Shown here in pieces: positions 1-30,415 of a stretch of DNA of 64,000 nucleotides. The position numbers and the translations under genes are program-made. The DNA is taken from contig JAZKIH010000075.1 of assembly GCA_040384965.1 (NCBI GenBank), positions 65,709-129,708 of the forward strand, in the 5' to 3' direction. The notes below the pieces were generated by a model that did no database searches, was not told the origin of the DNA, and was given only the letters and a program-made list of their open reading frames with translations. Within the stretch, counting starts at the first letter, position 1, and each line of letters begins with the position of its first letter. The stretch is from Bacteroidota bacterium (GTDB lineage: Bacteria; Bacteroidota; Bacteroidia; Sphingobacteriales; Sphingobacteriaceae).

Positions 1-29
1 ACCAGCTTATTGTAACTAAATATAAAGAA

Positions 30-779
30 TTAATGATTCAACAATTCAGGTAGTGAAGCTTTAAAAAACAAAGGTGCGGCATTTGTCGGCAAAGCCACGC
101 TGCCCGTGTATTGCTCGTCTATATCGAAACTTGTAACATACCACGGACTGGAAATCAAGTCAGATCTGATTAATTCGTTCTCGTGTACACATTGAATTGC
201 AGCCAGGTCAGCAATTATTCCCTTCGAACAGGCCTTTAGTATAGCCTCTTTTCGCGTCCACAGTGTATAAAATGCTTTGAGCGGGACAATAGCTTGGGTA
301 ATATGGTTTATTTCTTCTTCCGTGAAGTAATGCTCCAGAATCTCTGAATAATGGAAGTCAGGGTTTACCTTTTCAATATCCACACCGAGCTCCTGATAAC
401 TAAAAGCAATTAATACCCTGTTATCTGTATGACTGAGATTAAACTTAGGACTACTTTTATGTTGAACATCAACGATTGGACGTTTATTTTGACCGCTTGT
501 AAAAACAATGCTTTCGGCCTTAGTGCCAATATATTTGCTTAGAAAAAGGCGTAGGTAAGCTCTTCTTACGATGTAGTTTTCCGTGTCTTTTTGAAAATGG
601 AATTTTCTGGCCTTAACTGCTTCTTCATCGGAAAGCATCGCTTCTAAACTTTCCAGGTAGGGCTTCGTTTCCGATACATTTATATCCCAAATATGGCATG
701 AATTCTCTAACAAAGGAATGTGCGATCCCTGCATCCACTTTGCAGCAACAGACTGAAAAGAGATTGTTGTAAAGTCCAT
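30..779 (-). CDS. Sfp-type 4'-phosphopantetheinyl transferase
   Basis: From ORF 30..815. PPTase motifs are FNLSHTDNRVLIAFS, GVDIEKV and WTRKEAILKA (W-x-x-KEA-x-x-K). The track start at 815 is TTG. The first ATG (MDFTT) is at 779 and overlaps the TAA of the upstream NRPS by 1 nt (TAATG), so 779 is preferred. Confidence 0.9.
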   Translation of the reverse strand: MDFTTISFQSVAAKWMQGSHIPLLENSCHIWDINVSETKPYLESLEAMLSDEEAVKARKFHFQKDTENYIVRRAYLRLFLSKYIGTKAESIVFTSGQNKRPIVDVQHKSSPKFNLSHTDNRVLIAFSYQELGVDIEKVNPDFHYSEILEHYFTEEEINHITQAIVPLKAFYTLWTRKEAILKACSKGIIADLAAIQCVHENELIRSDLISSPWYVTSFDIDEQYTGSVALPTNAAPLFFKASLPELLNH

Positions 780-3700
780 TACTTTGAAGAAAACCTGACA
801 GCATTGTCGAGACAAGCCTGCAGGATCTTTGCAAATTCTTTATCATTAGGCGGAGCGAAAATGTAATTGTGCTCCCCCGGTATTTCATGAATACGTACAC
901 CTTTTAATGCAAGAGGCTTCCATCCGAGGTATTCAAAATCGTCCATGTAGAACGTTTTCTTCTGGGCTCTGAAGAGTTCGATGGAGCCATTGTATGGAGT
1001 AAAAACATACTTTTCCCATGCTTGAACATTCTTAATATCAATCTTATTGGCGTAGCCAAAAAAGCCTTCCTGGTTTTGATCTTTCCCGAAACGGAATTTC
1101 CAATACAGTTGGATGAACCTCCTTTTAATCGCTTCCGTTTTATACTCGATAGTTCTTTTTGGGTCTTCTTTATATAGGGTAGCTGTGTATAGTATTTGCT
1201 TGGTCAGGTATCGTAAATTAGTATATACCTTCTTTGCGAAGCCATCGTAGCGATCTGATTGGTAAGCATAGGTATCGAACATGGCAAGCATCTTTACGTC
1301 TTTGTTCATGGCCTTCAATTGCTTTGCCATTTCAAATGCTATTATTCCTCCAAAAGAGAAGCCAGCCAGTGCATAGGGACCGCGGGGGTTCTTTTTGAGT
1401 ATTTCTGAGATGTAAAACGCAGCCATATCCTCTATTTTTTCAAGAGGTTCATCTATCCCGTTCAGGCCTTTTGCCTGTAAGCCATAAACTGGCTGTTCAG
1501 AGTCCATGTTTTTCGCCAGCGTGTTGAAGAACAAAACGTTCAGTCCCGCCCCATGTACAATATATAGAGGCATTTTATTTCCCTCGGTACGAATTGGTAC
1601 AAGCGAGTCCCACGTTATTGACTTAGAATCCATCTGGAGCATTAGCGCCAGGGACTCGACGGTGGAACTTTCAAAGAAGGAGGCCAGGGGAAGGCGTTTC
1701 CCTGTTTGTTTTTCGATGTGGGTCATTACTTGCATTGCAATTAATGAATGACCACCAAGTTCGAAAAAGTCATCATAGACGCCAACAGACTCAACGCCAA
1801 GTAATTCAGCCCAAATGTTTGCTACCATCTTCTCGAGATCTGTGCGCGGCAGCACTTTATTCATTTTTGGTATTTCAGGCTTGCCCGTTTGCGTGCCTGC
1901 TGATTGGGATTGTACGGGTAGATCCGGCTTAATTGAGCCTTCTTCTGATTGTTGCTGAACTGGGTCGCTGCCGGCCTTAACTGGTAATGCTTCAAGTAAT
2001 TCTGCAAAAGCTCCGAGAACGGAATGTTTAAATAAGCTTGTCAGCGGTAGTTTACGACCAGTTTCTTTTTCAAGGCGGATCATCACCTGAACTGCTGTAA
2101 GCGAATGTCCGCCCAGTTCAAAAAAATCATCATGTAAGCCTATATAATCGAGCTTTAGGAACTCTTTCCAAATGTCTGTAACCAGTTTTTCATTTTCTGA
2201 TGCCGGTTTTTGTCCTGAAAGCCTCCCCTGAACAATGTTGTTTGGTTTTGGCAGAGCCTTCCGGTCAATTTTTCCATTCGGTAGCGTGGGGATGGATGGT
2301 AATCCAACATATTCGCCCGGAACCATATACGCCGGTAATAATTCCTTGAGGCCTGTTTTCCAGCTTAAAACTTCTTCGGGAGTCAGAATTAGGGTTTTCC
2401 CTGATTCGCTGTGTTCATGGCTGTCAGGATTAAGAGGTACTATATACGCAACGAGGCGCTGGTCGCCGGGCCGGTTTTCATAAGCGGAAACAACGCAATT
2501 CCCTACTGCTTCTAAGCTGTTTAACGCACTTTCTATGGCGCCGAGTTCAATTCTGTATCCCCTGACTTTTACCTGATTGTCTATGCGGCCGAAACATTGA
2601 ATTTCACCGTTAGGCAAGAACTTGCCCAGATCTCCGGTACGGTATATCCGGAGAACGCCGGCATCAATTGTGGTGCTTATGAAGCTTTTTTGGGTAAGTT
2701 CTGGTTGATTCCAATACTCTCTGGCAAGGCCATCGCCGGAAATGTAGATTTCGCCAGTATTCCCTGGTAGTACAACATGCAAATCTTCATCGAGTATGAA
2801 AATTTTAGTGTTGTCGATTGGTCGTCCTACAGTAATTATTTCAGTGGAATCAGTAATCCGCTTTACGGACGACCATATAGTAGTTTCGGTTGGACCATAC
2901 ATGTTCCAGACCTGATCGCATCTCTCCAACAGCAGTTCGGCGAGATCCTGTGGAAGTGCCTCTCCTCCGCATAATGCTTTCAGGTTCAATTTGTCATCCC
3001 ACCCTGTTTCAACCATCATGCGCCATGTTGACGGAGTGGCTTGCATTACCGTAATGCGCTCATTTTTGAGCAGATCAATAATTTCTCTGCCGTCTCTCGC
3101 ATCTTCAGCATCGGCAAGAATAAGTTGAGCGCCGCTTATGAGTGGGAGATAAAGTTCCAGGCCTGAAATGTCAAAAGAGATTGTAGTAACCGCCAGGAGC
3201 TTATCTTCAGCAGATATCCCGGGTGCCTTCTGCATGCTGCACAGAAAATTGGTAAGGCTGTGATGCTCTATAGCGATTCCTTTTGGCTGGCCAGTCGACC
3301 CTGAAGTATATATGATGTATGCAAGGTCATCACCATTAATAGTTACCTGTTGCTCGATGGAAGGATAGTTAATCAGGTTTTCTGCAATTTCCTCAAAGAC
3401 GATCTCATTGATGTTTCCATTAACAAATTGGCCTTTATAGTCAGCAGATGTCAGCAGTGCTTTTGCCGCTGAATCGCTCAGCATATATTCAATACGTGTC
3501 TTTGGATATTCAGGATCAACAGGAATATATGCCGCTCCTGTTTTCATGATCGCCAAAAGGCTTATGACCATTTCCAATGAGCGATCCATTGCAATGGCTA
3601 TTCGGTCTCCGCCTCTGATTCCAAGATCAATCAAATAAGCTGCAAGTCGGTTCGTCTGCGCTTCCAGGTCGCTATATGAAACTTCTGAGTTTTTAATTTT

Positions 3701-5182
3701 GATAGCCGCCTTATCGGGATAGAGTTTAGCATTGCGGCTAACAAACTCGTGGACTGGCGTGTTAGCTGGGTAGCTGACAGTTGTTTCATTCCAGTCGGCC
3801 AGGCTTTCGGTATAGTGATTTTCGTTTCTCCCGGCCAGCTCATAAACAGAAGTCTCAGGGTCGTGTACAACAGTATGAAGCATGCTCACAAACTCTGCCA
3901 TCATTTGTTTTATCGAGTCACGCTTGAACAGTTGGGTGTTGTAAGTCCATTCCAGGACAAAGTTTTGTCCCGTATCCGTGGCGTTCACAAATATTTCAAA
4001 GTTTTCGTAATCCCTTTTATTAGAAAAAAGGCTATTCTCCATATCGTCAAACTTCACTGCATCGCCTATTCCCATATCGATACTGAACACAATCGATACT
4101 AAAGGCAAACGCGAGGGGTCACGGGAGACGTTTAGCTTCTTCAGCAGGCTTCCAAAGGTGAATAGCTGATTGTCGTACGCTTCCAGGGTGGCATTTTTAC
4201 GCGTGTTCAAATACCTGGAAAAACTGGTGTCTTCTCCGAGCCTGCTTCGAAGAGGCAGAAAGTTGATGCAATGACTCATCAGCGAGTAGTTACCGGTAGC
4301 GGCCTGCCCCGCTGTAGGAAGTCCGAGCACGATGTCGTTTTGCTTCGTTATTTTATATAGAAAAACTTCAAATACAGCCCTTAAAATAATTGCCAGACTA
4401 CATCTGGTTTTACTTGCCAGGGACTTAATATCGCCTAGCAGGCCGGCGTCCATCACGATATCGTATCTCTCACTTTTTGTTGTTCGGATCGCGGGTCGTA
4501 CTCCATCCAGAGGAAGCTCCAGAATAGGAATAGAATCCTTAAACTCGTTGAGCCAAAAGCGTTCTATCTGTTTGTAATCGTCTGATTGGGTAAAGGTTTG
4601 TTGCTTGTGAGCGTATTCCTGAAACGAAACGGGTTCATCAAGAGTGCTCGTTTGTCCTTTAATACAGGTTGTATAATTACTTCCAAGTTCTTCAAGAAAC
4701 AATCCCATTGACCAGCCATCGCAAACAAGATGGTGTATCGTGAAAACAAGAATATGTTTTTCATTTTCGATGCGGAATAGGGAAAGCTGATATAGCGGCC
4801 CGTTAAGCAGATCGAAAACGACATTAATCTGGGTACGGATGTAGTTATCTAAAGCAGAATCCTTTTGTACAGGTGCAAGTGATGAAAGATCTTCAAAATG
4901 CATTTGCAGTACCCCATCACTTTCTATCCGAACCTGTGCGCCGTCTTCGGTGAACGTTGATCTTAGAGCTTCATGACGGTTAATCTCTTCCTGTAGACAT
5001 TTTTCAAGGCATGATTGGTCGAGATTTCCGGTGAGCGTTAATGATACGGATAGATTATAAGCGCGGTTAGCATTGTCTCCGCCAACTATGCATGATATCC
5101 ATACTTCCTGTTGCGCCTCTGTCGCTGGAGCAAATGATATTTTTGTCTTGTCTGTTATGCTGCTGTCTGAGAGAGAACGCAT
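779..5182 (-). CDS. NRPS termination module, C-A-T-T-TE
   Basis: 1467 aa. C domain has HHLVCDGWS. A-domain cores are LAYIIYTSGSTGQPKG, FDISGLE, NMYGPTETT, YRTGDLG, GRIDNQVKVRGYRIEL and PNGKIDRKAL. There are two carrier domains: FFELGGHSLTA (Ser codon 2102..2104) and FFELGGHSLIA (Ser codon 1745..1747). The thioesterase has GFSFGG (Ser codon 1355..1357) and a C-terminal GEH. Confidence 0.95.
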   Translation of the reverse strand: MRSLSDSSITDKTKISFAPATEAQQEVWISCIVGGDNANRAYNLSVSLTLTGNLDQSCLEKCLQEEINRHEALRSTFTEDGAQVRIESDGVLQMHFEDLSSLAPVQKDSALDNYIRTQINVVFDLLNGPLYQLSLFRIENEKHILVFTIHHLVCDGWSMGLFLEELGSNYTTCIKGQTSTLDEPVSFQEYAHKQQTFTQSDDYKQIERFWLNEFKDSIPILELPLDGVRPAIRTTKSERYDIVMDAGLLGDIKSLASKTRCSLAIILRAVFEVFLYKITKQNDIVLGLPTAGQAATGNYSLMSHCINFLPLRSRLGEDTSFSRYLNTRKNATLEAYDNQLFTFGSLLKKLNVSRDPSRLPLVSIVFSIDMGIGDAVKFDDMENSLFSNKRDYENFEIFVNATDTGQNFVLEWTYNTQLFKRDSIKQMMAEFVSMLHTVVHDPETSVYELAGRNENHYTESLADWNETTVSYPANTPVHEFVSRNAKLYPDKAAIKIKNSEVSYSDLEAQTNRLAAYLIDLGIRGGDRIAIAMDRSLEMVISLLAIMKTGAAYIPVDPEYPKTRIEYMLSDSAAKALLTSADYKGQFVNGNINEIVFEEIAENLINYPSIEQQVTINGDDLAYIIYTSGSTGQPKGIAIEHHSLTNFLCSMQKAPGISAEDKLLAVTTISFDISGLELYLPLISGAQLILADAEDARDGREIIDLLKNERITVMQATPSTWRMMVETGWDDKLNLKALCGGEALPQDLAELLLERCDQVWNMYGPTETTIWSSVKRITDSTEIITVGRPIDNTKIFILDEDLHVVLPGNTGEIYISGDGLAREYWNQPELTQKSFISTTIDAGVLRIYRTGDLGKFLPNGEIQCFGRIDNQVKVRGYRIELGAIESALNSLEAVGNCVVSAYENRPGDQRLVAYIVPLNPDSHEHSESGKTLILTPEEVLSWKTGLKELLPAYMVPGEYVGLPSIPTLPNGKIDRKALPKPNNIVQGRLSGQKPASENEKLVTDIWKEFLKLDYIGLHDDFFELGGHSLTAVQVMIRLEKETGRKLPLTSLFKHSVLGAFAELLEALPVKAGSDPVQQQSEEGSIKPDLPVQSQSAGTQTGKPEIPKMNKVLPRTDLEKMVANIWAELLGVESVGVYDDFFELGGHSLIAMQVMTHIEKQTGKRLPLASFFESSTVESLALMLQMDSKSITWDSLVPIRTEGNKMPLYIVHGAGLNVLFFNTLAKNMDSEQPVYGLQAKGLNGIDEPLEKIEDMAAFYISEILKKNPRGPYALAGFSFGGIIAFEMAKQLKAMNKDVKMLAMFDTYAYQSDRYDGFAKKVYTNLRYLTKQILYTATLYKEDPKRTIEYKTEAIKRRFIQLYWKFRFGKDQNQEGFFGYANKIDIKNVQAWEKYVFTPYNGSIELFRAQKKTFYMDDFEYLGWKPLALKGVRIHEIPGEHNYIFAPPNDKEFAKILQACLDNAVRFSSK

Positions 5183-5185
5183 TAA

Positions 5186-8100
5186 TTAGTGCTTCGTATA
5201 TAACTGAGCAAACTGCTCTAAAATTGAATATTTAAATAATGTAGTTAATGGCAGGCGAACGCCGGTTTCTTTTTCCATCCGTATCATCACCTGTACTGCC
5301 AGCAGCGAATGCCCGCCTAACTCAAAAAAATCTGCATTGAGATTTAACGTTTTTAAACTCAATACATCTCCCCATACTCTGGCCACCCGCTTTTCGATTT
5401 CCGTTCCCGGCAAATTATCTGTATTGTCAGAAAAGCCTTTATCCTGAGGTTTAGGCAGCTTATTTATGTCAATCTTGCCATTAGGAAGCAAAGGCATTTT
5501 ACTAACCCTCACGAACTCGGAAGGGATCGTGTATGCAGGAAGAAATTCTTTAAGACGTTGTTTCCATTCCATTTCTTGCTCACTGCTGAAATCCCCTTCG
5601 TTACCAGATGGGTTTCTCGCATACTCGTAAATATCAGTATTAAGATTTGTAAACTCAACAGGTTGAGGGATTTTATCACCGAGAGCTTGCGGTATGAAGA
5701 TAGCGTCGAATAGCCCGTCTGCGCCGTCGCTTGACCAGCGAATGTGTGTGTTAAAACCTTTGTTTTTTCCGAGATTCCACAATGACTGAGGATCTTGTCC
5801 GTTTGTCACCTGGTGAAGTGCCGCCTTAACTTTACTTACTGTCGGATTTTCGACCTCATTTTGAATAACTTCCTGGAGCCGGTGATCGACTGAAGTTCGG
5901 GTATTAAAAACGTTCGTAATTGAAATAACCTTTGATAGGTTTTTGTCAATTATTGTCGAAATATCGTCGATAGTTGAAGCTGGGAGCCATGGTATTTCTA
6001 CTTCTGCCGCAGCAGACATAGATGGACCATTGACAAAGAGCCATATATCGTAATGATATTTAGTAGTTTCATTCAAATGGCTGCCTTCCCGTAGCTGTAT
6101 ATTCACTGAGGTAATTGCGGGAATAACCTGTGGAAGCAGATAGAAAAACCCCGGGTCTGCAACTAATTCATCTTCAACTCTAACTCGTCGCTCAACTATT
6201 TTTTTGAATTCGGTAGTTAGCTGCTGATCGTCACTGCGGTTTAGCTGATCCAGGGCATGATACATAGACAGTGTATTCTTGCCCTGCATGTCACCAATAA
6301 AGATGCAGCCGCCATCTTTTAATGCTTTAGATGACTCCCGGAGAACTTTCAGCAGATACTCTGCATCCGGGAAATATTGTACGACGCCGTTTATTATAAT
6401 TAAATCGAGAGAGTGGGGTTCAACAATGCTCAGGTCATCTGCCGGAGCAGCCAATGCTGTCACGTTTCTAAACTTTTCCGGTTCGGCATCAAGTTTTTCC
6501 TGCAGTTTACTGATCGCTGTTTCAGAGTAATCAGTAGCTACAAACTTCTCAGTTAAAGGTGCAATCTCGAACACTAGCTGCCCCGCACCACAGCCTAATT
6601 CCATCGTGTTCTTTGTGACTAGTATTTTAATACGGTCTACCGATTGTTTAAGCCATTCTTCAACTTCTCCTTTAATATCCTGGCGTCCGCTTATTTGCTG
6701 AGCTACTGCAATATCCAATTGCCTTTCACCAACGGTAAGGAGATTTTCTGCAACAGCGCCTCTTTGATAAAGATCTTCCCATCTTTCCTGCCATGTAGGA
6801 TGGGAGTTTGTGGCAACATATTCAGGAACTATAAAGGCAACAAGCCGCATGTCTCCAGCTGCATTTTCTTTCGGAACAACGATCGCCTCCTTTACTTCAT
6901 CATTTTGATTAAGGAAATGTTCAATCGCAGATAACTCAATCCGGTGGCCTCTGATCTTTATCTGATTATCTATCCGGCCCAGGTAAACGATTTCACCCGA
7001 TCCTGTGAATTTGCCCAGGTCTCCTGTCCGGTAAATTGTCTGGTGCTTGTTGTCCAAAAAAACATCAGTTATAAAATTACCGGCTGTTAATGCTGGTTGA
7101 TTAAGATATCCCCTTGCAAGGCCTTCACCCGCTATATAAATCTGGCCTTCGAGCCCCGGCATTACAGGATGTAGGTTCTCGTCCAGGATATAAATGCTTG
7201 TATTATTTATAGGCCTGCCTATAGTAATCGCCTCACCCTTTACACTAATATTCTTGATGGACGACCAGATGGTTGTTTCGGTAGGCCCGTACATGTTCCA
7301 AACTTCGTGAGTAAGGTCAATAAGTTTATTAGCAAGATCCGATGACAGTGCTTCCCCGCCGCAAAGCGCTTTTATCTCAACTGGTGTATTCCAGCCGGCA
7401 TCAATCATCATTTTCCATGTAGATGGAGTAGCCTGCATGATACTTATCTGGTGTGATTTTATCATATCCATCAAAATCCGTCCATCTTTAACAGCTTCTT
7501 TATCTGCAATGATTACTTCTGCGCCGCTAATTAGGGGCAGAAACAACTCCAGCCCGGCAATGTCGAACGAAATTGTGGTAACGGCGAGCAGGCGATCACT
7601 ACTTGTGATGCCGGGCGACGTTTGCATGCTGTGTAAAAAATTAACAACGTTGTGATGTTCCAGCAGCGTGCCTTTAGGTTTTCCGGCAGATCCGGAGGTA
7701 TAAATTATATACGCAAGATCTGAGCCGCCAACCGGTACAATTGGGTTAGTATCCGGGTATGTTGGCAGTTTCGCTCCTATTTCCTCAAGAATAATCTCCG
7801 GAATCTGTGAGTTAAACCGGCCTTTATAATGTGTCTGTGTTATCAGGATCTTTGCAGAAGAATCAGACAGCATATACTCAATGCTTTTTTGGGGATAGAG
7901 CGGATCAATAGGTACATATGATGCCCCGCATTTAAGGATGGCTAATAAGGCTATAAGCATTTCCGCTGAACGGTCAACCGCCAGCGCAACCCTATCATCT
8001 TTTTCTATGCCATAGGTCAGCAGATGCCTCGATAGCTGGTTAGCTCGTGCATTAAGTTGATGGTATGTGAAGTAGGTGTCGTTGAAAGTTACGGCCTTAC

Positions 8101-9592: not shown

Positions 9593-12500
9593 TGGTCTTC
9601 GTTATAGGTTACTTGTAAATATTTTCCGGGGTTATCCAGATCGGCAATAAACCATGCCGGATTTCCATCCTTGTCTCTTCCTAACCTGGCACCTTCAACG
9701 GGAGGAGTATTGACAGTTTCAAGATTAACAAAATTAACCGATTTGTCAATAATGGGATGTAAAAATCCTGCGTCAATCATTTCAATCAGGCTCTCTTTGA
9801 ACTTGTCTGAGATCTGCGTCAGTTCATCAAGGGTATGGCTTTCGGTCGTGAAACATGGAAAGCCGTCCACGATATGGATTCCCTTATATCTCATTAAGGT
9901 GAATAATAGCTCGCTGTATGGAATGTCTTCTTCGAATTTGATTTTCCACATCGATCCGAACCCTACGATGTTAATCGCCATTCGCAGCTCCCTGCACGTC
10001 TGGCTCATCGTGTTTATCAAATAAGATGTCTTCTCATTTAGTTCTTTTTGAAGGGCGGGCCCGCGGCTTTTAAAATACTCCAGGGAAGCTTTGGCAGCTG
10101 CAAGTGCTAAAGGATGCCGGACGAATGTGCCCGCGAAATAAGTTACACCGGCTTCAGGTACTGACGAGTCTCCGAATTGCCATAAGCCTCCGTCAAGAGC
10201 ATCCATAAATTCCTTTCTTCCCGCTATTACCCCGATTGGCAAACCTCCGCCTATCACTTTGCCATAAGATGCGAGGTCGGCTTTAATCCCGAATAATGCT
10301 TGCGCTCCACCGGGGTGCATTCTAAAACCTGTGATAACTTCATCGAATATTAATACTGTACCAGAATCTGTCGTTAATTGACGGACCGCTTTCAGGAAGT
10401 CGATTGGCTGAAATTCTGGCCTTCGGCTTTGTACCGGTTCAACTAATACCGCGGCGATTTCTTCTGCCCGATCGGCAATTATTTTGAGAGTGTCGTCCGT
10501 GCCGTAATCAAGAATAAGCATGTTTTGAACAGCTTCAGGCATAATACCGGGGGCTGCCGGAATAGTTCGGAAAGTTTTAGTGCCCCGAACTATTACTTCA
10601 TCAAATATTCCATGGTAGGATCCAGAGAATGCGACAATTAATGATCTTCCGGTAACGGTCCTCGCTATCCGCATCGTTCCCAGTACAGCTTCTGATCCGG
10701 TACTGCAAAGTGCTGCACGGTCGAAACCAGTAAATTCGCAAACTAGTTTACAAACCTCCCCCGCAAGTTCATGCTGTGGCCCAATTTCGTAGCCGATCTC
10801 GATCTGATTCTTTATAGCTTCTACTAAGAAATCTGGTTGAAATCCAAGCATGTTTGAACCAAATCCATTTAATGCATCGATATATTCATTACCATCGATG
10901 TCCCAAATCCTGCTTCCTTTCGATCGTCTGGCTACTATCGGATAAACCAGTTCTTTAGTTAACGGCCTGAATCCTGATACGACCCTCGGGTCCGCCATGT
11001 GAGTCCTGTTCTTCTGTGTGTACTCTTTACTGGCTTTTGTCTTTTTATTAAAGTCGTCAGTTAATGACTTAATAAACCTGGATTGAGCTGGCGTTAAACC
11101 AGAGCTGGTCATGTCTATTTTGGGACTTGCGCCGAAGGGTTTTATTGCCCCAGATATTTCCGATTGTTTAAAATTCCGATCGTTGGCGTCATTGATAATA
11201 GTAGACGTTATTGTCTTTAACGATTTGCGACTTGTGAAACTGCTTTCATCCTGTAGGATATCTGGAGTCAACCCCGCATTAATATAATCCGCCAATAGGT
11301 TTACTGTGTTCAAATTTTCATTAAGCTGTCTGAAGCTTATTGGCAAAAATTCTTTTCTTAACGTAATGGCGAGCTGAGTTAGGAGCAATGAATCCATGCC
11401 TATCTCAATAAAGCTGTAATTAATGTCAGTATCATCCAGATTAATACCGGATGAAGACTCAATTATAGCCCTGATCCTTGTAATCAATGTTGATTTTCTG
11501 GAGAGTGTCTCAGCACCTTCTGTTAACTCAGGAAGTTCTGTGATGTGTTCGGATCGGGGAATTACCGGGGCGGTTGAATTTATTAAAGCGGGTTCTACCC
11601 AATATCTTTTTTTGTCGAATGCATAAGCAGGCAATTCGATCTTTCTGCCCATTGCATTTAGCGACTTCCAATCTGGAATAATTCCTGCCTGCCATAATTT
11701 TCCCATAGACTGCAGGGCAGACATGTATTCAGAGCTTCGGCTTTGTTGTTTTTCAAACCCCGGAACTGAAGTAAGTGATTTTCCCCGCGCAAATTGTTTA
11801 GCAAATATAGTAGCAGAATTTCCTGGGCCTACTTCAAGCAAAACTCTCAATGGATCTTCCCATAACGATTGAACTGCATCATAAAATCTAACCGGCTGCC
11901 GGAGCTGATCAGCCCAATAGTCAACGCTCATTGCTTCGAACTCCGACATCCATTTTCCTGTCACTGTAGAAACAATTGGCAGACGAGGGGGACTTAACTT
12001 AATTGACAATAAAAAGGTTTTGAAGTCGGCTTTAATATCGTCCATCATAGACGAATGAAAGGCATGGCTCGTTTTAAGTAGTTTGTTTGCAACTCCGCTC
12101 CCAGTAAGTTCCTTTGAAAAAGTTGCGACAGAAGTCGTTGGTCCTGAGACAACCGAAAGATCGGAGGTATTATAAGCGGCTATACTTAATGACGAAGGCA
12201 AGATCTTCGCAAGTTCAAATGTTGGCATTTTTACAGATAACATACTCCCGCCAGGGAGCCTGCTGATGAGCCTTGCCCGTTTCGAGACAACTTTTAAAAC
12301 ATCTTCCAGGGAAAATATGCCAGCAAAATGTGCTGCCACAAATTCGCCGATACTATGGCCTGCTACAGCCGATGGGTTTATGCCCCAGCTCATCCAAAGC
12401 TTTGCCATAGCATATTCGGTGACAAACAATGCGGGCTGTGTGTATCGGGTATTTTGAAGGTTTGCTTCTGCTGGACTTTCTTCATCCGAAGGATAAAGGA

Positions 12501-15500
12501 TATCCCTGATATCGGCTTCTAAATAAGGCAATAATATATTTGCACAGGTCTCAATAGCATCTTTAAAGACCGGATGTAAGTCATAAAAAGATCTTCCCAT
12601 GTTAAGATATTGCGAACCTTGTCCGGGGAAGATAAACGCAGTTTCCGAAGCAGCTTCCGAAAATACTTTTGGGAGACCGGCGGATCGATTTTTCAGCTTA
12701 TCAAGAAGATCATTTATATCGTGTGCAACTACGAATTGCCTGAGTGGAAAATCTTTTCTGGTGCGCTGAAGTGTCGCCGCTAAATCTGCAAGGTCAACCG
12801 AGGGATTTTGTTTTACATACTCTTCCAGCTTTCGCTGATACTCGTTCAGACTGTATTCTGTCTTTGCTGACCATAATATAAGCTGAGGACTGCTTGTTCT
12901 CCCAGTTGAAGGCCGGGTTTCCGGGAACTCTTCGAGGATAACATGTACGTTTGTTCCGCCTACACCAAACGAGCTTACACCTGCGCGCCTTGTGCCAGAC
13001 GAATCCCATTTTTTCAGTCGGGAGTTAACATAGAAGGGGCCGTTTTGAAAATCGATATTGGGGTTAGCATTCTCGTAAAAAAGTGAAGGCGGGAGTTGCT
13101 TGTGATATAATGACATCGTTGTCTTGATGAAGCCGGCAATTCCTGCTGCATGTGTGAGGTGTCCGATATTGCTTTTTATCGATCCTATAGCACAGAATTG
13201 CTTACTTTGCGGCAGTCCGAAAGCGAGCTTCAAACCTTCAATTTCGATAGGATCGCCTAGTGGAGTAGCCGTTCCGTGGGCCTCAATATAACTTAAAGAA
13301 GAAGCTTCTATTCCAGCATCGTCCATAGCCATAGTAATTGCTCCTGCTTGTCCTTCGGGATCGGGTGCGGTAAAACTCGCTTTTCCAGCTCCATCATTAT
13401 TGAGACCAACTCCTTTGAGTATTGCGAATATTGTATCGCCATCACGTTCAGCAGATTCCCGTGTTTTAAGAACTACAACTCCTGCGCCGTCGCTGAAAAC
13501 GGTGCCGGTTGCATGTGCATCAAAAGGCCTGCAATGTCCATCTCTGCTGAGCATCGCACCTTCTTCATATACATGTCCGCTATTTACAGGGACCGTGATG
13601 GATATACCGCCAGCTAATGCAACATCACATTGCCCTTTTCTAAGACTTTCGGCTGCCTGAGCAACAGCCAGCAGTGAAGTCGAACATGCAGAATAAACGC
13701 TTACTGCCGGTCCCTTTAGATTTAACTCGTATGCGGTACGCATAGATATATAGTCCTTTTCGTTCAGCGTTGATACCTGAAAGCTGCCCGCACGTTCTAT
13801 GAGTTCCTGGCGCGTATGTACATTATTTAAATAGTAGGTATTTGATCCGCTGCCAGCGAAAACGCCAATTCTTCCATCATATTTATCGGGCAGATGACCA
13901 GATTGTTCAAGTGCTTCCCATGCGATCTCAAGAAAAATACGCTGCTGCGGATCCATGAGTTCAGCGAGTAAGGGTGGGATTCCAAAGAAGGCAGCGTCAA
14001 ATTTGTCGACATTACTTACAATGCCCCGGGCTTTTACATATTCGGGATTGTTTATTACATGATCAGGCAGACTTGCGTCCAATTCCTCGTCGCTGAAGAA
14101 TTTGGTCGTTTCACGGCCAGAAATCAGTATCTGCCATAGTTCAGCTACAGTATCTGCCCCAGGAAATCTCCCGGCCATACCTACAACTGCAAGATCTTTG
14201 CTTAACGATGGTTTTTTGCTCTTTTTTTCTGATTTAATCTCCTCCTTCCCGGATAAAGTGAGGGACAACTGTTTAATATATGGGTATTGGTAAAGGCGTG
14301 TAACAGGGAGAGATAATTTATGTTCGTTCAATAGCACAGAAACAAAACGAAGTGCCAGCAGTGAATTACCCCCCAAATCAAAGAAATTATCGTTGATCCC
14401 AATTTTATCGATTTGGAGAAGAGAGCTCCAGATGGACGATAAAAGCTTCTCCATTGGTGATACCGGAGCTTTGAAGAGCACGTTCAAATCCGGGCGTGCA
14501 GTTCCTGGTTCTGGCAGCGCATTACGGTCAATTTTACCATTCTCGCTCAACGGTACTTTATCAATTTCAAGTAAATGATCGGGAACCATGTAATCAGGAA
14601 GCTGCAGGTTCAAATATGCGCGAAGATTGGCTTTATCGAATTGACTTGATGAACTGACGATATAGCCCACCAACTTTTTCATTCCATCCGCGGCTCCTTT
14701 TGCGACTACAACACACTGCGCTACCCCCTCGTACTGAAGGATTGTATTTTCTATTTCACCAAGTTCTATCCGGAACCCCCGGATTTTTACCTGATCGTCT
14801 GAACGGCCAAGATATTCCAGATTTCCACTCGGATGCCACTTTGCCAGGTCACCTGTTCGATAAAGTCGATTGTGTTCGCTGTTCGTGAAAGGATTTAGCA
14901 AGAATCTATAGCTATCCAGTTCCGGACGGTTTAAATAACCTCTTGCAACCTGGCACCCGCCAATGTAAAGTTCGCCCGAAATTCCTGTTTCGCAGGGATT
15001 CATGTGCTCGTCAAGAACATACAAACTAGTGTTTGCAATAGGCTTACCTATAAAAATTTTCTCGGGTTGCTCAGGCACATCATAGCAGCTAACGTCTATG
15101 GCGGCCTCGGTAGGGCCATATAGGTTGTGAAGTGAGACGTGCGGAAGCTTTTCGCGGAAGCTATTGGCTTGTTTAAGTGTAAGTTCTTCGCCGCTGCAGA
15201 GCACTCTTTTTAACCCCGGACATGAGTTTGTTTCTATCTCTTGAAGGAACATTTCCAGCATTGATGGCACAAAATGAATTGTTGTGACTTTTTGTTCATC
15301 AATAACATTTTGTAAGTAAACTGGATCTTTTTGCCCCCCAGGTTTTGCCATCATAACCGTGCAGCCGACCATCAAAGGCCAAAGAAGTTCCCACACCGAA
15401 ACATCAAAGCAGATTGTGGTTTTTTGAAGTATAACATCTCCGGCTTGTAAGTGAAAGTGACTTTGCGCCCATTTCAGCCTGTTGGCTAATGCATAGTGCT

Positions 15501-16074
15501 CGGTTAAAACCCCCTTAGGCTTGCCCGTGGAGCCGGAAGTATAAATTACGTAAGCAAGGTCGTGAGATTGTATGCGTGGAAGTGATAAAGCAGGTGCCGG
15601 AACTTGTTCCCACTCCTCATCAACAACGACAGAATTTAGTCCGCTAATTCTGGAGAGTGGCTCGTTTATTTTACCGATAGTTGAACTATTTGTAAGGACG
15701 ATTTTTACTCCGGCATCATTCAGCATGAATACAATGCGGTCAGCCGGGTAATCGGGATCTATAGGTAGATACGCCCCTCCGGCCTTAAGCGTAGCAAGAA
15801 TAGATACCATCATTTCGATAGATCTGTCCAGACAAATACCTATAATTTCTTCTTTAGACAGGCCTTTTGATAGTAGATATGCTGCTAGTTGATTCGATTT
15901 AACTTCAAGCTGTGAATAGGTTAAGCTTTCGAGTTCAGTTATGACAGCCACCTTATCTGGAAATAGTTTGGCTTGGTTAGAGAATTCAGAAGGAAACATT
16001 TCCGCGTTTGCGAAGGTTATTTCAGTATTGTTAAACGTATAAAGGACTTTCTCGTTTTCTTCAGGATGTGGCAT
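9589..16074 (-). CDS. Hybrid NRPS-PKS loading/extension protein, A-T-KS-AT-ACP-aminotransferase
   Basis: 2161 aa. A domain: LAYVIYTSGSTGKPKG, FDVSVWE, NLYGPTEAA, YRTGDLAKW, NGKIDRNAL. T domain: FFDLGGNSLLA (Ser571, nt 14362..14364). KS: C-H-H triad VYSACSTS (Cys797, nt 13684..13686), EAHGTATPLGDP, SNIGH. AT: GHSIGE (Ser1241, nt 12352..12354) and HAFH. ACP: IGMDSLL (Ser1562, nt 11389..11391). C-terminal class-III PLP aminotransferase: GFGSNMLGFQP, FDEVITGFR, SYGKVIGGG (Lys1939, nt 10258..10260). Confidence 0.95.
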   Translation of the reverse strand: MPHPEENEKVLYTFNNTEITFANAEMFPSEFSNQAKLFPDKVAVITELESLTYSQLEVKSNQLAAYLLSKGLSKEEIIGICLDRSIEMMVSILATLKAGGAYLPIDPDYPADRIVFMLNDAGVKIVLTNSSTIGKINEPLSRISGLNSVVVDEEWEQVPAPALSLPRIQSHDLAYVIYTSGSTGKPKGVLTEHYALANRLKWAQSHFHLQAGDVILQKTTICFDVSVWELLWPLMVGCTVMMAKPGGQKDPVYLQNVIDEQKVTTIHFVPSMLEMFLQEIETNSCPGLKRVLCSGEELTLKQANSFREKLPHVSLHNLYGPTEAAIDVSCYDVPEQPEKIFIGKPIANTSLYVLDEHMNPCETGISGELYIGGCQVARGYLNRPELDSYRFLLNPFTNSEHNRLYRTGDLAKWHPSGNLEYLGRSDDQVKIRGFRIELGEIENTILQYEGVAQCVVVAKGAADGMKKLVGYIVSSSSQFDKANLRAYLNLQLPDYMVPDHLLEIDKVPLSENGKIDRNALPEPGTARPDLNVLFKAPVSPMEKLLSSIWSSLLQIDKIGINDNFFDLGGNSLLALRFVSVLLNEHKLSLPVTRLYQYPYIKQLSLTLSGKEEIKSEKKSKKPSLSKDLAVVGMAGRFPGADTVAELWQILISGRETTKFFSDEELDASLPDHVINNPEYVKARGIVSNVDKFDAAFFGIPPLLAELMDPQQRIFLEIAWEALEQSGHLPDKYDGRIGVFAGSGSNTYYLNNVHTRQELIERAGSFQVSTLNEKDYISMRTAYELNLKGPAVSVYSACSTSLLAVAQAAESLRKGQCDVALAGGISITVPVNSGHVYEEGAMLSRDGHCRPFDAHATGTVFSDGAGVVVLKTRESAERDGDTIFAILKGVGLNNDGAGKASFTAPDPEGQAGAITMAMDDAGIEASSLSYIEAHGTATPLGDPIEIEGLKLAFGLPQSKQFCAIGSIKSNIGHLTHAAGIAGFIKTTMSLYHKQLPPSLFYENANPNIDFQNGPFYVNSRLKKWDSSGTRRAGVSSFGVGGTNVHVILEEFPETRPSTGRTSSPQLILWSAKTEYSLNEYQRKLEEYVKQNPSVDLADLAATLQRTRKDFPLRQFVVAHDINDLLDKLKNRSAGLPKVFSEAASETAFIFPGQGSQYLNMGRSFYDLHPVFKDAIETCANILLPYLEADIRDILYPSDEESPAEANLQNTRYTQPALFVTEYAMAKLWMSWGINPSAVAGHSIGEFVAAHFAGIFSLEDVLKVVSKRARLISRLPGGSMLSVKMPTFELAKILPSSLSIAAYNTSDLSVVSGPTTSVATFSKELTGSGVANKLLKTSHAFHSSMMDDIKADFKTFLLSIKLSPPRLPIVSTVTGKWMSEFEAMSVDYWADQLRQPVRFYDAVQSLWEDPLRVLLEVGPGNSATIFAKQFARGKSLTSVPGFEKQQSRSSEYMSALQSMGKLWQAGIIPDWKSLNAMGRKIELPAYAFDKKRYWVEPALINSTAPVIPRSEHITELPELTEGAETLSRKSTLITRIRAIIESSSGINLDDTDINYSFIEIGMDSLLLTQLAITLRKEFLPISFRQLNENLNTVNLLADYINAGLTPDILQDESSFTSRKSLKTITSTIINDANDRNFKQSEISGAIKPFGASPKIDMTSSGLTPAQSRFIKSLTDDFNKKTKASKEYTQKNRTHMADPRVVSGFRPLTKELVYPIVARRSKGSRIWDIDGNEYIDALNGFGSNMLGFQPDFLVEAIKNQIEIGYEIGPQHELAGEVCKLVCEFTGFDRAALCSTGSEAVLGTMRIARTVTGRSLIVAFSGSYHGIFDEVIVRGTKTFRTIPAAPGIMPEAVQNMLILDYGTDDTLKIIADRAEEIAAVLVEPVQSRRPEFQPIDFLKAVRQLTTDSGTVLIFDEVITGFRMHPGGAQALFGIKADLASYGKVIGGGLPIGVIAGRKEFMDALDGGLWQFGDSSVPEAGVTYFAGTFVRHPLALAAAKASLEYFKSRGPALQKELNEKTSYLINTMSQTCRELRMAINIVGFGSMWKIKFEEDIPYSELLFTLMRYKGIHIVDGFPCFTTESHTLDELTQISDKFKESLIEMIDAGFLHPIIDKSVNFVNLETVNTPPVEGARLGRDKDGNPAWFIADLDNPGKYLQVTYNEDQ

Positions 16075-16187
16075 GCTCTGGACCGATTCTTAACAACTAT
16101 TGCCAAAATAATAAAAAATGTATTGACCTCGCCATCCGCGATTAGATGGATAGGAGGGTTGAATTGACTCTTTGAAAAAGTTAATCA

Positions 16188-17357: not shown

Positions 17358-17409
17358 TTCAAGTTCTAATATCTAAAGGTTATCCAAAAACCAAACACGC
17401 AGACGCCGT

Positions 17410-18309
17410 TCACCGATTCAGGCTATCTTTCTGATGAGTGATGTTCCACCAAATCCCTTTGAAAAATGCTTTAGCCAGGTCAATCCTGTTTGCGGCTAAA
17501 TATCTGTATAAATTTCTGGGTAAAACAAGAGTATAAAAGTACAAATGGAAAATAATTACGGTTAGAGGAGTAGCATTTCTTCGAATAAAGAGGATTCTGT
17601 TACGAGTCATAAAATATTCCTTCATGGGACTATTTTGACCAGTGGAAAGTGATTCTTTGTGGTAAATCACAGCACTTGGGTCAATCCAGATTTCATAACC
17701 GTACTTTTTTATGCTCTCGCACCATTCCATTTCCTCATAGTACAAAAAGTAATTTTCGGGCATAGACCCAGCTTTTTCTATTGCACTTCGCCGCAACATC
17801 ATTGCTGCTCCATGTGCAAATTCAGTTCGATAGGATGTTGAACCATATTGACCGTAATCAGTTTCAAGCTGCCCGATACATTTATTACGTCCGGTGTAAA
17901 AATTCATTTTTGTAAAGCCCGCATATTGAATAGTATTCTGCTGAGCGTAGTATATGATCTTTGGACAGACAATTCCTGCCAGGGGCTTACTTTCTAATAA
18001 TGCAATTAGTTTTTCAATCAGTCCGGCCGTAAACTCCGTGTCATTGTTAACGAAGAACAAGTAGTCGCCGCTTGCTTTTTCAACGCCCAGATTATTGCCG
18101 CCAGCGAAACCCAGGTTTTTTTCTGAACGGATGTAAGTTACCTCCGGAAATTCAAATGACAGTTCTTTGGTCGCGTTAGTAATGCTTCCATTATCAACTA
18201 CGATTATCTCCGCATCGCCATATTGTTTGAGCAAATCTATCGATCGCAAAAGCTCCAGCGTGGCTTGCGGTTGGTTGAAATTTACCGTGATGATTGAAAG
18301 TTTTTTCAA
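17410..18309 (-). CDS. Family 2 glycosyltransferase (soluble, rhamnosyl/WbbL-like architecture)
   Basis: 299 aa. Motifs are LSIITVNFNQ, VVDNGS and FFVNNDT (DxD-like). The start codon at 18309 is TTG, and there is no in-frame ATG near the N-terminus. Confidence 0.8.
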   Translation of the reverse strand: MKKLSIITVNFNQPQATLELLRSIDLLKQYGDAEIIVVDNGSITNATKELSFEFPEVTYIRSEKNLGFAGGNNLGVEKASGDYLFFVNNDTEFTAGLIEKLIALLESKPLAGIVCPKIIYYAQQNTIQYAGFTKMNFYTGRNKCIGQLETDYGQYGSTSYRTEFAHGAAMMLRRSAIEKAGSMPENYFLYYEEMEWCESIKKYGYEIWIDPSAVIYHKESLSTGQNSPMKEYFMTRNRILFIRRNATPLTVIIFHLYFYTLVLPRNLYRYLAANRIDLAKAFFKGIWWNITHQKDSLNR

Positions 18310-30404: not shown

Positions 30405-30415
30405 TCTGATCTGTA

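What the first reader, a model, noticed from the sequence alone, without database searches (positions are those of the whole stretch)
30..16074. Orphan co-linear NRPS-PKS assembly line: A-T-KS-AT-ACP-AMT, then C-A(MT)-T, then C-A-T-T-TE, with its own Sfp-type PPTase
Three very large minus-strand genes and a PPTase are joined by 0-4-nt gaps or overlaps. Every catalytic signature I could read is intact. These are the KS Cys-His-His triad, the AT GHSIG serine, five carrier-domain serines, the HHxxxDG motif in both C domains, the PLP lysine and the TE GxSxG.

The domain order implies a sequence of steps. An amino-acid starter is extended by one malonyl unit with no KR/DH/ER. The beta-keto group is transaminated on-line. 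Two amino acids are added, one of them methylated. Release is by TE.

An amino-acid-primed KS-AT-ACP-AMT module resembles the fatty-acid-primed MycA/ItuA logic and the McyE AMT logic. I do not recognise this exact three-protein architecture from any characterised pathway. The predicted product is a small, very polar, diamino-acid-containing tripeptide-like molecule, a class easily missed by standard screens.
Basis: partly seen in the sequence, partly recalled or inferred. Interest (0 to 1): 0.8.

Follow-up and report, generated by a model that had tools for sequence, protein, structure and literature searches.

The report
Orphan serine-primed NRPS-PKS gene cluster
Four tightly packed genes in a Bacteroidota genome encode an intact peptide-polyketide assembly line, predicted to make a small, very polar diamino tripeptide-like compound; it is a real but fairly ordinary orphan natural-product cluster from a widespread, unstudied family.

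Summary
Window 30-16074 (minus strand) holds four translationally coupled genes:
- A-T-KS-AT-ACP-AMT (2161 aa)
- C-A(N-MT)-T (1468 aa)
- C-A-T-T-TE (1467 aa)
- an Sfp-type PPTase

Specificity codes sharpen the prediction. The starter is Ser (DVWHLSLIDK). The extender is malonyl (GHSIG/HAFH). Next comes Gly (DILQLGMIWK), N-methylated by an MT inserted between A8 and A9, then a second Gly. The predicted product is 3,4-diamino-5-hydroxypentanoyl-Sar-Gly (C10H20N4O5), linear or cyclised.

An empty site in Daejeonella lutea suggests these four genes are a discrete gain/loss block. The two upstream GT2 genes are conserved flank genes that also occur without the cluster.

The amino-acid-primed KS-AT-ACP-AMT module is widespread (Bacteroidota, Proteobacteria, Cyanobacteria and others). 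Its starter varies, and Gly usually follows. A 2013 survey listed it, uncharacterised, in Pedobacter heparinus. I found no characterised pathway that uses it.

Verdict: a genuine orphan cluster and a new member of a known kind. Interest is about 0.35, not 0.8.

The parts
9589..16074 (-). g1: hybrid NRPS-PKS, A(Ser)-T-KS-AT(malonyl)-ACP-AMT, 2161 aa (NCBI MES3018321.1)
14533..15984 (-). g1 adenylation domain. Specificity code DVWHLSLIDK, read as serine.
   Evidence: Pfam AMP-binding at 31-381 plus AMP-binding_C at 440-514. Code read from the A4-A5 segments.
14263..14442 (-). g1 peptidyl carrier domain, Ser571 (LGGNSL)
13081..14196 (-). g1 ketosynthase with Cys797, His of EAHGTAT (about residue 933) and His972
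   Evidence: The KS-AT region's best PDB match is 8xju, E 1.1e-232.
11737..12636 (-). g1 acyltransferase with GHSIG (S1241) and HAFH (1337), read as malonyl-specific
11275..11469 (-). g1 ACP, Ser1562 (IGMDSL)
9760..11097 (-). g1 class-III aminotransferase (AMT) domain, PLP Lys1939 (SYGKVIGGG)
   Evidence: Pfam Aminotran_3 3.1e-47. MycA AMT 6kfm E 2.5e-121, residue-level alignment.
5186..9592 (-). g2: NRPS module C-A(Gly, interrupted by N-MT)-T, 1468 aa, GTG start overlapping the g1 stop
8210..9466 (-). g2 condensation domain, HHIICDG at 157
6821..8128 (-). g2 adenylation core (A1-A8), code DILQLGMIWK, read as glycine
5603..6655 (-). g2 methyltransferase inserted between A8 and A9/A10. SAM motif LGCGAGQ (999) and NETTKYHYD (1174). 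Backbone N-MT type.
   Evidence: Pfam Methyltransf_12/31/25/11. TioS interrupted A domain 5wmm E 2.8e-108 over residues 491-1381. Sequence.
5204..5389 (-). g2 carrier domain, Ser1429
779..5182 (-). g3: NRPS termination module C-A(Gly)-T-T-TE, 1467 aa (NCBI MES3018319.1)
3836..5134 (-). g3 condensation domain, HHLVCDG at 150
2270..3736 (-). g3 adenylation domain, code DILQLGMIWK, read as glycine
1643..2182 (-). g3 tandem carrier domains, Ser1027 and Ser1146
   Evidence: Pfam PP-binding, 2 stretches. Motifs.
821..1570 (-). g3 type I thioesterase with GFSFG (S1276) and PGEH
   Evidence: Pfam Thioesterase 8.6e-26. Sequence.
30..779 (-). Sfp-type 4'-phosphopantetheinyl transferase. The likely ATG start at 779 overlaps the g3 stop by 1 nt; the mechanical ORF runs to a TTG at 815.
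   Evidence: Pfam ACPS plus AASDHPPT_N. NCBIfam HetI-like 6.9e-33, below cut-off. GVDIE and WTRKEA motifs. Junction.

Best explanation
A four-gene block (g1, g2, g3, PPTase) encodes a colinear hybrid NRPS-PKS assembly line. The domains and residues are shown; the chemistry is inferred.

Proposed steps:
1. The PPTase converts the five carrier domains to their holo forms.
2. The g1 A domain loads L-serine onto T1.
3. The KS condenses seryl-S-T with malonyl-S-ACP, loaded by the malonyl-type AT. This gives 4-amino-5-hydroxy-3-oxopentanoyl-S-ACP. There is no KR, DH or ER.
4. The MycA-type AMT domain converts the 3-keto group to an amine, making a vicinal 3,4-diamine.
5. The g2 C domain couples this acyl group to glycine. 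That glycine has been N-methylated on its carrier by the MT inserted in the A domain, so it enters as sarcosine.
6. g3 adds a second glycine. Its TE then releases 3,4-diamino-5-hydroxypentanoyl-Sar-Gly. The linear form is C10H20N4O5, [M+H]+ 277.1506. Release with ring closure through one of the free amines or the Ser hydroxyl gives [M+H]+ 259.1401.

The release mode is not resolved. The biological role is unknown.
For: - Domain order and E-values.
- All catalytic residues intact.
- AMT aligns end to end with the solved MycA AMT, E 2.5e-121, including the PLP lysine.
- The KS-AT region's best PDB match is the polyketide synthase entry 8xju, E 1.1e-232.
- Specificity codes, read against my recollection of the Stachelhaus 1999 table: DVWHLSLIDK is the serine code, and DILQLGMIWK is one residue from the glycine code DILQLGLIWK. 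A near-identical code, DVWHFSLVDK, is called serine in PMC8313283.
- g2's best PDB matches include the second C-A module of LgrA and 5u89, both glycine-activating by my recollection.
- The MT lies between A8 and A9 and matches the TioS interrupted A domain 5wmm, E 2.8e-108.
- ORF lengths match the orthologues in Daejeonella rubra (2146/1468/1444 aa), with the same three-gene order. This argues for a maintained, functional cluster.
- L081 carries the orthologous four-gene block between GT2a and a 245-aa gene. In D. lutea, GT2a is followed directly by the orthologous 244-aa gene (79% identical) and then TauE (94%).
- Coupled start and stop codons.
Against: - Nothing is shown experimentally. Substrates, the AMT reaction and the release mode all rest on homology and colinearity.
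- A free gamma-amine next to a thioester can lactamise on its own (tetramic acid or gamma-lactam shunt), and there is no N-capping domain.
- The closest relative (L081, 71% identity) has a middle module without an A core (C-MT-T, 1062 aa). Module use in this clade may therefore not be strictly colinear.
- The window ends at the PPTase, so genes to its left in this genome were not seen. Two look-ups failed.
- No transporter or regulator could be assigned to the cluster.
- MIBiG/antiSMASH could not be run.
Confidence: 0.6

Rival explanations
1. The two upstream GT2 genes (16188-18309) belong to the pathway, and the real product is a glycosylated peptide, or a peptide attached to a membrane glycan. 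The cluster would then be six genes, not four.
For: - Same strand, with gaps of 52 and 113 nt.
- After the PPTase, GT2b and GT2a are the most frequently shared accessory genes near g1 homologues: 14 and 13 clustered sequences including the window (26 for the PPTase), out of 83 fetched loci plus the window.
- They sit directly next to the cluster in two arrangements. Upstream and co-directional: window, L004, L026, L081-83, L085. Downstream and convergent: L003, L007, L025, L045.
- Some cyanobacterial homologues carry an N-terminal GT2 domain fused to A-T-KS-AT-ACP-AMT.
- PMC8313283 proposes that an AMT-containing PKS/NRPS product needs a sugar/Wzy locus.
Against: - GT2a is a highly conserved protein: 7985 homologues at E<=1e-30, with the 120 listed mostly 62-67% identical; the named ones are nearly all Sphingobacteriaceae.
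- Three of the four GT2a homologues sampled independently of g1 have the GT2b-GT2a pair with no NRPS-PKS nearby: D. lutea L084, Pedobacter sp. L086, Desertivirga L087.
- The D. lutea site is the same flank minus the four-gene block.
- The fused cyanobacterial GT2 is only generically similar: 33% over 92 aa.
- GT2a is a multi-pass membrane, PgaC-like enzyme. That is an odd partner for a very polar cytosolic product.
Confidence: 0.25
2. The AMT acts as an aminomutase rather than a transaminase. It belongs to the glutamate-1-semialdehyde aminomutase family, and its substrate here is a vicinal amino-ketone. It could therefore move the amine (4-amino-3-oxo to 3-amino-4-oxo) through a bound diamine, with no external amino donor. 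The product would be a beta-amino-gamma-keto peptide, C10H17N3O6, [M+H]+ 276.1190.
For: - After MycA, the domain's next PDB and NCBIfam matches are GSA aminomutases (E about 1e-46 to 1e-52; hemL 5.7e-72).
- The substrate has the same 1,2-amino-carbonyl pattern as GSA. This is inference from established GSAM chemistry.
Against: - The nearest characterised relative by far is the MycA AMT (E 2.5e-121). From my own knowledge, that domain is a true transaminase using an external donor.
- No sequence feature separating the two activities was identified.
- The substrate is tethered to a carrier, which makes the reorientation needed for a mutase cycle harder.
Confidence: 0.08
3. The line does not run to completion as drawn. 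The free gamma-amine cyclises onto the ACP thioester, releasing a tetramic acid or a 4-aminopyrrolidin-2-one. Alternatively, the cluster is silent or decaying and makes nothing under natural conditions.
For: - No N-acylating starter C domain or other N-cap is present.
- The closest relative has lost the A core of the middle module.
- Gain and loss of the block between close relatives shows it is dispensable.
Against: - All 16 domains keep their catalytic residues.
- The ORFs are uninterrupted and the same length as orthologues at 62-71% identity. That is the pattern expected under purifying selection.
- The same loading logic followed by a C domain is kept across several phyla.
Confidence: 0.1
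4. The cluster makes an already known compound whose biosynthesis is published or deposited but was missed here.
For: The paper library lacks most subscription journals. MIBiG/ClusterBlast could not be run.
Against: - No hit in nine full-text searches for the domain string, vicinal or 3,4-diamino products, or AMT domains in Bacteroidota.
- NCBIfam named NRPS/PKS equivalogues all score far below cut-off.
- The source record calls the proteins only 'amino acid adenylation domain-containing protein'.
- A survey of Pedobacter genomes reports no significant MIBiG hit for most of their BGCs.
Confidence: 0.08

Closest known systems
Mycosubtilin/iturin synthetase subunit A (MycA/ItuA): KS-AT-ACP-AMT-C-A-T
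   Same: A KR-less cis-AT PKS module is followed directly by a class-III aminotransferase domain and then a condensation domain. The AMT aligns over its full length with the solved MycA AMT (6kfm, E 2.5e-121) and keeps the PLP lysine.
   Different: MycA is primed by a long-chain fatty acid through an acyl-ligase/ACP. Here the primer is an amino-acid A-T didomain with Asp235 and a serine code, so the product of amination is a vicinal diamine, not a beta-amino fatty acid. The downstream C domain is on a separate protein. The peptide part has two residues rather than seven.
Microcystin/nodularin McyE/NdaF (KS-AT-CM-ACP-AMT-C-A-T-C)
   Same: An in-line AMT within a hybrid PKS-NRPS (my own knowledge). 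Microginin MicA appears among the distant hits at 35% identity.
   Different: Those act on a long polyketide chain (Adda) and include C-methylation. There is no amino-acid priming directly before the aminating module.
Uncharacterised Pedobacter heparinus protein C6XWU5 and the wider A-T-KS-AT-ACP-AMT family
   Same: Identical domain layout (A-CP-KS-AT-CP-PLP1, predicted 'Nrp-Mal-Gly-Pk') in Table 2 of PMC3870968. There are 80 full-length or near-full-length relatives in GTDB species genomes. The next A domain is Gly-like in 36 of 59 loci.
   Different: Most relatives are about 50% identical, use Pro-like (28/59) or Val-like (16/59) starters, and have a single C-A-T-TE partner. The serine-primed, three-protein form with an extra N-methylating module occurs only in the window, L081 and L082/83. 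L014 (Parapedobacter) is also serine-primed but appears to carry a single MT-containing Gly module before its TE.
Amino-acid-primed PKS modules that make statine-type gamma-amino-beta-hydroxy acids
   Same: An aminoacyl-S-T is handed to a KS-AT-ACP module and extended by one malonyl unit.
   Different: Those modules reduce the beta-keto group with a KR or leave it. Here an AMT replaces the KR, predicting the amino analogue (an 'aminostatine'-type unit). This comparison rests on my own knowledge, not on a test.
BioF/BioA chemistry (KAPA to DAPA in biotin synthesis)
   Same: An alpha-amino ketone is converted to a vicinal diamine by a class-III aminotransferase. The analogy is chemical only and rests on my own knowledge.
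   Different: Those are free-standing enzymes acting on free acids, with a different donor (SAM for BioA). They are not carrier-bound and not closely related in sequence.
TioS(A4aM4A4b) interrupted adenylation domain (PDB 5wmm)
   Same: A methyltransferase is inserted between motifs A8 and A9 of an A domain. The match covers residues 491-1381 of g2, E 2.8e-108.
   Different: The substrate differs (glycine here), as does the pathway.

Membership tests
Modular cis-AT hybrid NRPS-PKS assembly line | A, T, C and TE domains with core motifs: A3/A5/A7/A8/A10, carrier GGxS, HHxxxDG, GxSxG | tested here: met
   A3 matched my strict pattern in g1 and g3 only; the g2 A domain is otherwise supported by Pfam (8.4e-84) and by the A5, A7, A8 and A10 motifs.
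Modular cis-AT hybrid NRPS-PKS assembly line | KS with the Cys-His-His triad and an integrated AT with GHSxG | tested here: met
   C797, His in EAHGTAT (about 933), H972; GHSIG S1241; HAFH 1337
Modular cis-AT hybrid NRPS-PKS assembly line | A product is actually made, in the colinear order | not testable with these tools
   Needs expression and mass spectrometry.
Iturin/mycosubtilin-type beta-aminating module | A class-III AMT domain homologous to MycA AMT, with the PLP lysine, placed directly after the ACP of a KR-less module | tested here: met
   6kfm E 2.5e-121, with YGK(V/I)IGGG aligned. Domain order.
Iturin/mycosubtilin-type beta-aminating module | Fatty-acyl priming (acyl ligase/FAAL-ACP) giving a beta-amino fatty acid lipopeptide | tested here: not met
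   The primer is an amino-acid A domain (TIGR01733 1.3e-135) with Asp235 and the code DVWHLSLIDK. The line works like MycA at the amination step but is not an iturin-family lipopeptide synthetase.
Backbone N-methylating interrupted A domain | MT inserted between A8 and A9, with a SAM-binding GxGxG motif | tested here: met
   A8 at 872-896, MT at 980-1330, A10 at 1367. 5wmm E 2.8e-108.
Backbone N-methylating interrupted A domain | N-methylation of the tethered amino acid | not testable with these tools
   Inferred. Glycine has no side chain to methylate.
Sfp-type PPTase | Two-lobed ACPS fold (AASDHPPT_N plus ACPS) with the GxD and WxxKEA motifs | tested here: met
   Pfam. GVDIE at 144 and WTRKEA at 186.
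Sfp-type PPTase | HetI equivalogue (NCBIfam NF042922 cut-off of 370 bits) | tested here: not met
   113.9 bits. It is Sfp-type in general, but not a HetI equivalogue.
Cluster with a known product (named NRPS/PKS equivalogues; MIBiG) | Score above the curated cut-off for a named synthetase | tested here: not met
   SolG, EntF, AusA, MxcG, Pks13 and the rest all score far below cut-off.
Cluster with a known product (named NRPS/PKS equivalogues; MIBiG) | High-coverage MIBiG/ClusterBlast match | not testable with these tools
   No MIBiG library was available. Literature searches were negative.
GT2 pair as part of the cluster | The GT2b-GT2a pair occurs only together with the NRPS-PKS genes | tested here: not met
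   The pair is present without the cluster in L084, L086 and L087, and with it in L085. L084 is the empty site.

The most novel reading that the evidence does not exclude
The amino-acid-primed KS-AT-ACP-AMT module is a dedicated maker of carrier-bound beta,gamma-vicinal diamines ('aminostatine'-type units). I could find no described assembly line that makes this building block. It would define a cross-phylum family (Bacteroidota, Proteobacteria, Cyanobacteria, Verrucomicrobiota, Planctomycetota, Acidobacteriota) of small polar X-(beta-NH2)-Gly peptides with unknown function. This window would be the serine/sarcosine version. A more radical sub-reading is that the GSAM-type domain transposes amine and ketone without an external donor.
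Probability: 0.4. Interest if true: 0.5.

Novelty: new member of a known kind. Interest (0 to 1): 0.35.

Why it matters
If the prediction holds, the cluster gives access to a tiny, highly polar vicinal-diamine peptide. Standard reversed-phase screens miss compounds of this type.

It would also give access to an enzyme module that turns an amino acid into a chiral beta,gamma-diamino acid on a carrier protein. Such a unit is the amino analogue of statine, so it could act as a protease-inhibitor isostere or a metal-binding motif. Both suggestions are my inference.

The same logic recurs in many phyla with different starter amino acids, and no product is known for any of them. One characterised member would therefore annotate many clusters at once.

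Nothing here changes how assembly lines are understood. The value is that of a well-defined genome-mining target.

Tried and rejected
1. GT2 genes as cluster members. Co-occurrence looked persuasive at first. Sampling GT2a homologues independently of g1 showed the pair is a conserved unit that is often alone, and D. lutea has the empty site. I downgraded this to a rival.
2. GT2 domains fused to cyanobacterial homologues as proof of a link. They are only generically similar to GT2a and GT2b.
3. The sigma-70 promoter and terminator scan found no more sites than in shuffled sequence (45 vs 41.8; 19 vs 17.4). The scan is not suited to Bacteroidota.
4. The Rfam and tRNA scans of the whole window found nothing, so there is no riboswitch clue.
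5. No MbtH-like ORF was found in 1-20000.
6. Nine literature searches found no characterised homologue. One was too broad to be useful, and one was rejected for syntax.
7. I tried to read the DNA left of the window by exact-protein look-up of the PPTase, g3 and GT2a. All three failed.
8. The carenaemin cluster has an AMT and a sugar link, but its architecture is different (KS/AT-AMT at the N-terminus of a Gln module, and a KR-containing Ser module). It is not a relative.


Full report
**Observation**

The minus strand of window 30-16074 carries four ORFs: 2161, 1468, 1467 and 261 aa. Their junctions, read directly from the sequence, are:
- a 4-nt overlap between g1 and g2 (GTGA);
- a 3-nt gap between g2 and g3;
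- a 1-nt overlap (TAATG) between g3 and the PPTase, if the PPTase starts at the ATG at 779. That start gives 249 aa, close to the 244-aa orthologue in L081.

- g1: A-T-KS-AT-ACP-AMT
- g2: C-A-T, with a methyltransferase inside the A domain
- g3: C-A-T-T-TE
- a two-lobed Sfp-type PPTase

No KR, DH or ER is present, and the inter-domain linkers are too short to hide one.

- KS Cys797 in YSACSTS, with the HGTAT and NIGH histidines
- AT GHSIG
- five carrier serines: g1 S571 and S1562, g2 S1429, g3 S1027 and S1146
- HHxxxDG in both C domains
- the PLP lysine in SYGKVIGGG
- TE GFSFG

**What the domains say about substrates**

I located the specificity-conferring residues from the A4 and A5 motifs and the segments between them, then checked them by alignment across all loci.
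- The g1 A domain reads DVWHLSLIDK. By my recollection of the Stachelhaus 1999 table, this is the canonical serine code. A near-identical code, DVWHFSLVDK, is called serine in PMC8313283.
- Both downstream A domains read DILQLGMIWK, one residue from the canonical glycine code DILQLGLIWK (again my recollection). Their best PDB matches include the second C-A module of LgrA and 5u89, both glycine-activating by my recollection.
- The AT has GHSIG plus HAFH, the malonyl-CoA pattern.
- The g2 methyltransferase sits between A8 (residues 872-896) and A10 (residue 1367). The whole A-MT-A unit matches the TioS interrupted A domain 5wmm (E 2.8e-108). That is the backbone N-methylating type, and glycine has nothing else to methylate.
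- The AMT aligns over 446 residues with the solved MycA AMT (E 2.5e-121), PLP lysine included.

**Most likely mechanism (inferred by colinearity)**

1. Serine is loaded.
2. It is extended by one malonyl unit to 4-amino-5-hydroxy-3-oxopentanoyl-S-ACP.
3. The 3-keto group is transaminated on the carrier, as in MycA. This gives a 3,4-diamine.
4. g2 couples this acyl group to sarcosine.
5. g3 adds glycine.
6. The TE releases the chain.

The linear product would be C10H20N4O5 ([M+H]+ 277.1506). N-methylated and glycine residues favour cis-amide turns, so small-ring closure through an amine or the Ser hydroxyl (259.1401) is a real alternative. I could not resolve the release mode.

Two caveats apply:
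- The free gamma-amine could lactamise prematurely, because there is no N-cap.
- The AMT belongs to the glutamate-1-semialdehyde aminomutase family, and here it meets a vicinal amino-ketone. An amine/ketone transposition cannot be excluded, though MycA homology favours ordinary transamination.

**Source and relatives**

- The proteins are in NCBI as MES3018321.1 (g1), MES3018319.1 (g3) and MES3018322.1 (upstream GT2). They are labelled 'MAG... [Bacteroidota bacterium]', sit on a 131,957-bp contig, and carry only generic names.
- The closest g1 relative is 71% identical, in assembly GCA_040384025.1. The next are 62-63% identical, in Daejeonella and in metagenomes.
- Both L081 and D. rubra L082 keep the same three synthetase genes in the same order. 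L081 also keeps the PPTase. D. rubra has a Cupin_8 gene there instead, plus sulfotransferase, APS-kinase and Wzy_C genes upstream of g1.
- In L081 the middle module has no A core (C-MT-T, 1062 aa).
- The A-T-KS-AT-ACP-AMT layout is common. The best 80 match the query over all or nearly all of its length.
- By record title, those 80 come from Bacteroidota, Gamma- and Betaproteobacteria, Cyanobacteria, Verrucomicrobiota, Planctomycetota, Acidobacteriota and Halobacteriovorax.
- In 59 loci where both codes could be read, the starter is Pro-like in 28, Val-like in 16 and Ser in 3. The A domain after the AMT is Gly-like in 36.
- The window's starter A domain is only 34-44% identical to most of these, while its AMT is 60-69% identical to most Bacteroidota relatives and about 45-60% elsewhere. 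The loading domain appears to have been exchanged on a conserved chassis.

**Cluster boundaries**

Two GT2 genes lie just upstream on the same strand: GT2a (16188-17357), a PgaC-like multi-pass membrane enzyme, and GT2b (17410-18309), which is rhamnosyltransferase-like.

They first looked like cluster members. After the PPTase, they are the most frequently shared accessory genes near g1 homologues, and they occur in two different arrangements.

A search starting from GT2a changed the picture.
- GT2a has thousands of homologues. The 120 listed are mostly 62-67% identical, and the named ones are nearly all Sphingobacteriaceae.
- Of four sampled independently of g1, three have the GT2b-GT2a pair, preceded by a divergent gene for a small protein, with no NRPS-PKS nearby.
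- Daejeonella lutea is decisive. It has the same flank as L081 (OmpA, PorP, T9SS adhesin, small ORF, GT2b, GT2a). There GT2a is followed directly by the 244-aa gene and, further on, TauE. In L081 those two genes lie just beyond the PPTase. The orthologues are 79% and 94% identical.
- The window shares the adhesin, small-ORF and GT2 flank with L081 and D. lutea.

The four genes g1-g2-g3-PPTase are therefore a discrete unit that is present or absent between related genomes. A functional link to the GT2 pair stays possible, and I give it about 0.25. It is not needed to explain the data.

**Comparison with what is known**

- At the amination step the line works like MycA/ItuA. It fails the defining feature of that family, fatty-acyl priming, so it is not an iturin-type lipopeptide synthetase.
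- The priming step resembles the NRPS-to-PKS hand-off of statine-forming modules, with an AMT where those have a KR.
- The identical layout was listed for Pedobacter heparinus C6XWU5 in a 2013 survey of PLP domains in assembly lines (PMC3870968). No product was given.
- A 2023 survey found no significant MIBiG hit for most Pedobacter BGCs. A 2025 survey gave no detail on the hybrid clusters.
- Nine full-text searches found no characterised pathway with this module and no natural 3,4-diamino product made this way.
- NCBIfam offers no named equivalogue above cut-off.
- MIBiG itself could not be queried. That remains the main gap.

**Verdict**

This is a genuine, intact orphan hybrid NRPS-PKS cluster. 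This work adds the building blocks (Ser, malonyl, N-Me-Gly, Gly), the exact unit boundaries, the family context, and the demotion of the GT2 genes.

It is a new member of a known kind. Every domain and every step has precedent. The combination is an uncharacterised module variant found in many public genomes. A specialist would call it a reasonable mining target, not a surprise. I score interest at 0.35.

Noticed in passing
window 16188-19095: A conserved three-gene unit: a small two-TM protein (18583-19095, +, no Pfam hit) divergent from GT2b (17410-18309, -) and a PgaC-like membrane GT2a (16188-17357, -). The unit recurs across Sphingobacteriaceae, with GT2a at 62-67% identity, often without any NRPS-PKS. 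In Pedobacter sp. (L086) and Desertivirga (L087) it sits next to an RsbU/STAS/RsbW-type partner-switching module. Its glycan product is unknown.
   Followed up: yes
L081 16464-19652: In the closest relative (71% identical g1), the middle module is C-MT-T (1062 aa) with no AMP-binding core. About 405 aa are missing relative to the window's g2. Its carrier would need loading in trans, perhaps by the glycine A domain of the last module.
   Followed up: partly
L085 5011-7668 (also L004 and L026): Mucilaginibacter has a stand-alone A-T-TE protein (885 aa) inside a Wzx/Wzy polysaccharide locus, directly beside the GT2 pair and the NRPS-PKS. In L004 and L026, a TE-domain match 62-65% identical to the window's g3 TE lies in the corresponding upstream position, and it is closer than the TE of those loci's own C-A-T-TE. 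This hints at aminoacylation of a glycan.
   Followed up: partly
L082 3851-9839: In Daejeonella rubra, six extra genes lie between the GT2 pair and g1: Wzy_C/TPR, an arylsulfotransferase, a sulfotransferase, APS kinase and two small ORFs. A Cupin_8 gene replaces the PPTase. This suggests a sulfated or hydroxylated variant. Some distant homologues carry sulfotransferase domains fused to the synthetase (P0029, P0062).
   Followed up: no
P0036 and similar proteins: Cyanobacterial homologues (Chamaesiphon and others, about 2600 aa) have a GT2 domain fused to the N-terminus of A-T-KS-AT-ACP-AMT. This architecture is unusual. The GT2 domain is only generically similar to the window's GT2 genes.
   Followed up: partly
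window 19343-27220: A cell-surface set linked to type IX secretion: a 1603-aa Big_2/cadherin adhesin with a CHU_C sorting domain, then PorP/SprF, then an OmpA/TPR/PD40 protein. It is syntenic with L081 and D. lutea L084, which places the organism near Daejeonella.
   Followed up: partly
window 29505-33042: A UbiA prenyltransferase, an FAD_binding_4 oxidase, a short-chain dehydrogenase and a HAD phosphatase lie in a row. This gene set resembles the decaprenyl-phospho-arabinose (DprE1/DprE2-type) donor pathway, which would be unexpected in Bacteroidota.
   Followed up: no
window 34449-49938: A large Wzx/Wzy-type polysaccharide locus. It includes GT11, GT2, GT8 and GT1 enzymes, a hexapeptide acyltransferase, Wzy_C, an FkbM methyltransferase, a second PgaC-like GT2 (44620-45810), a 733-aa protein with no Pfam hit, and a Bac_transf initiating transferase.
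   Followed up: no
window 1-16000 vs 24000-52000: The NRPS-PKS block has 42-45% G+C, against 36-41% for most of the rest of the window. This fits the gain/loss behaviour of the block, but it could also reflect protein composition.
   Followed up: no
window 53776-61724: An RND efflux system (OEP, AcrB-type pump, HlyD-type adaptor) and an M61 glycyl aminopeptidase. No link to the cluster was found.
   Followed up: no
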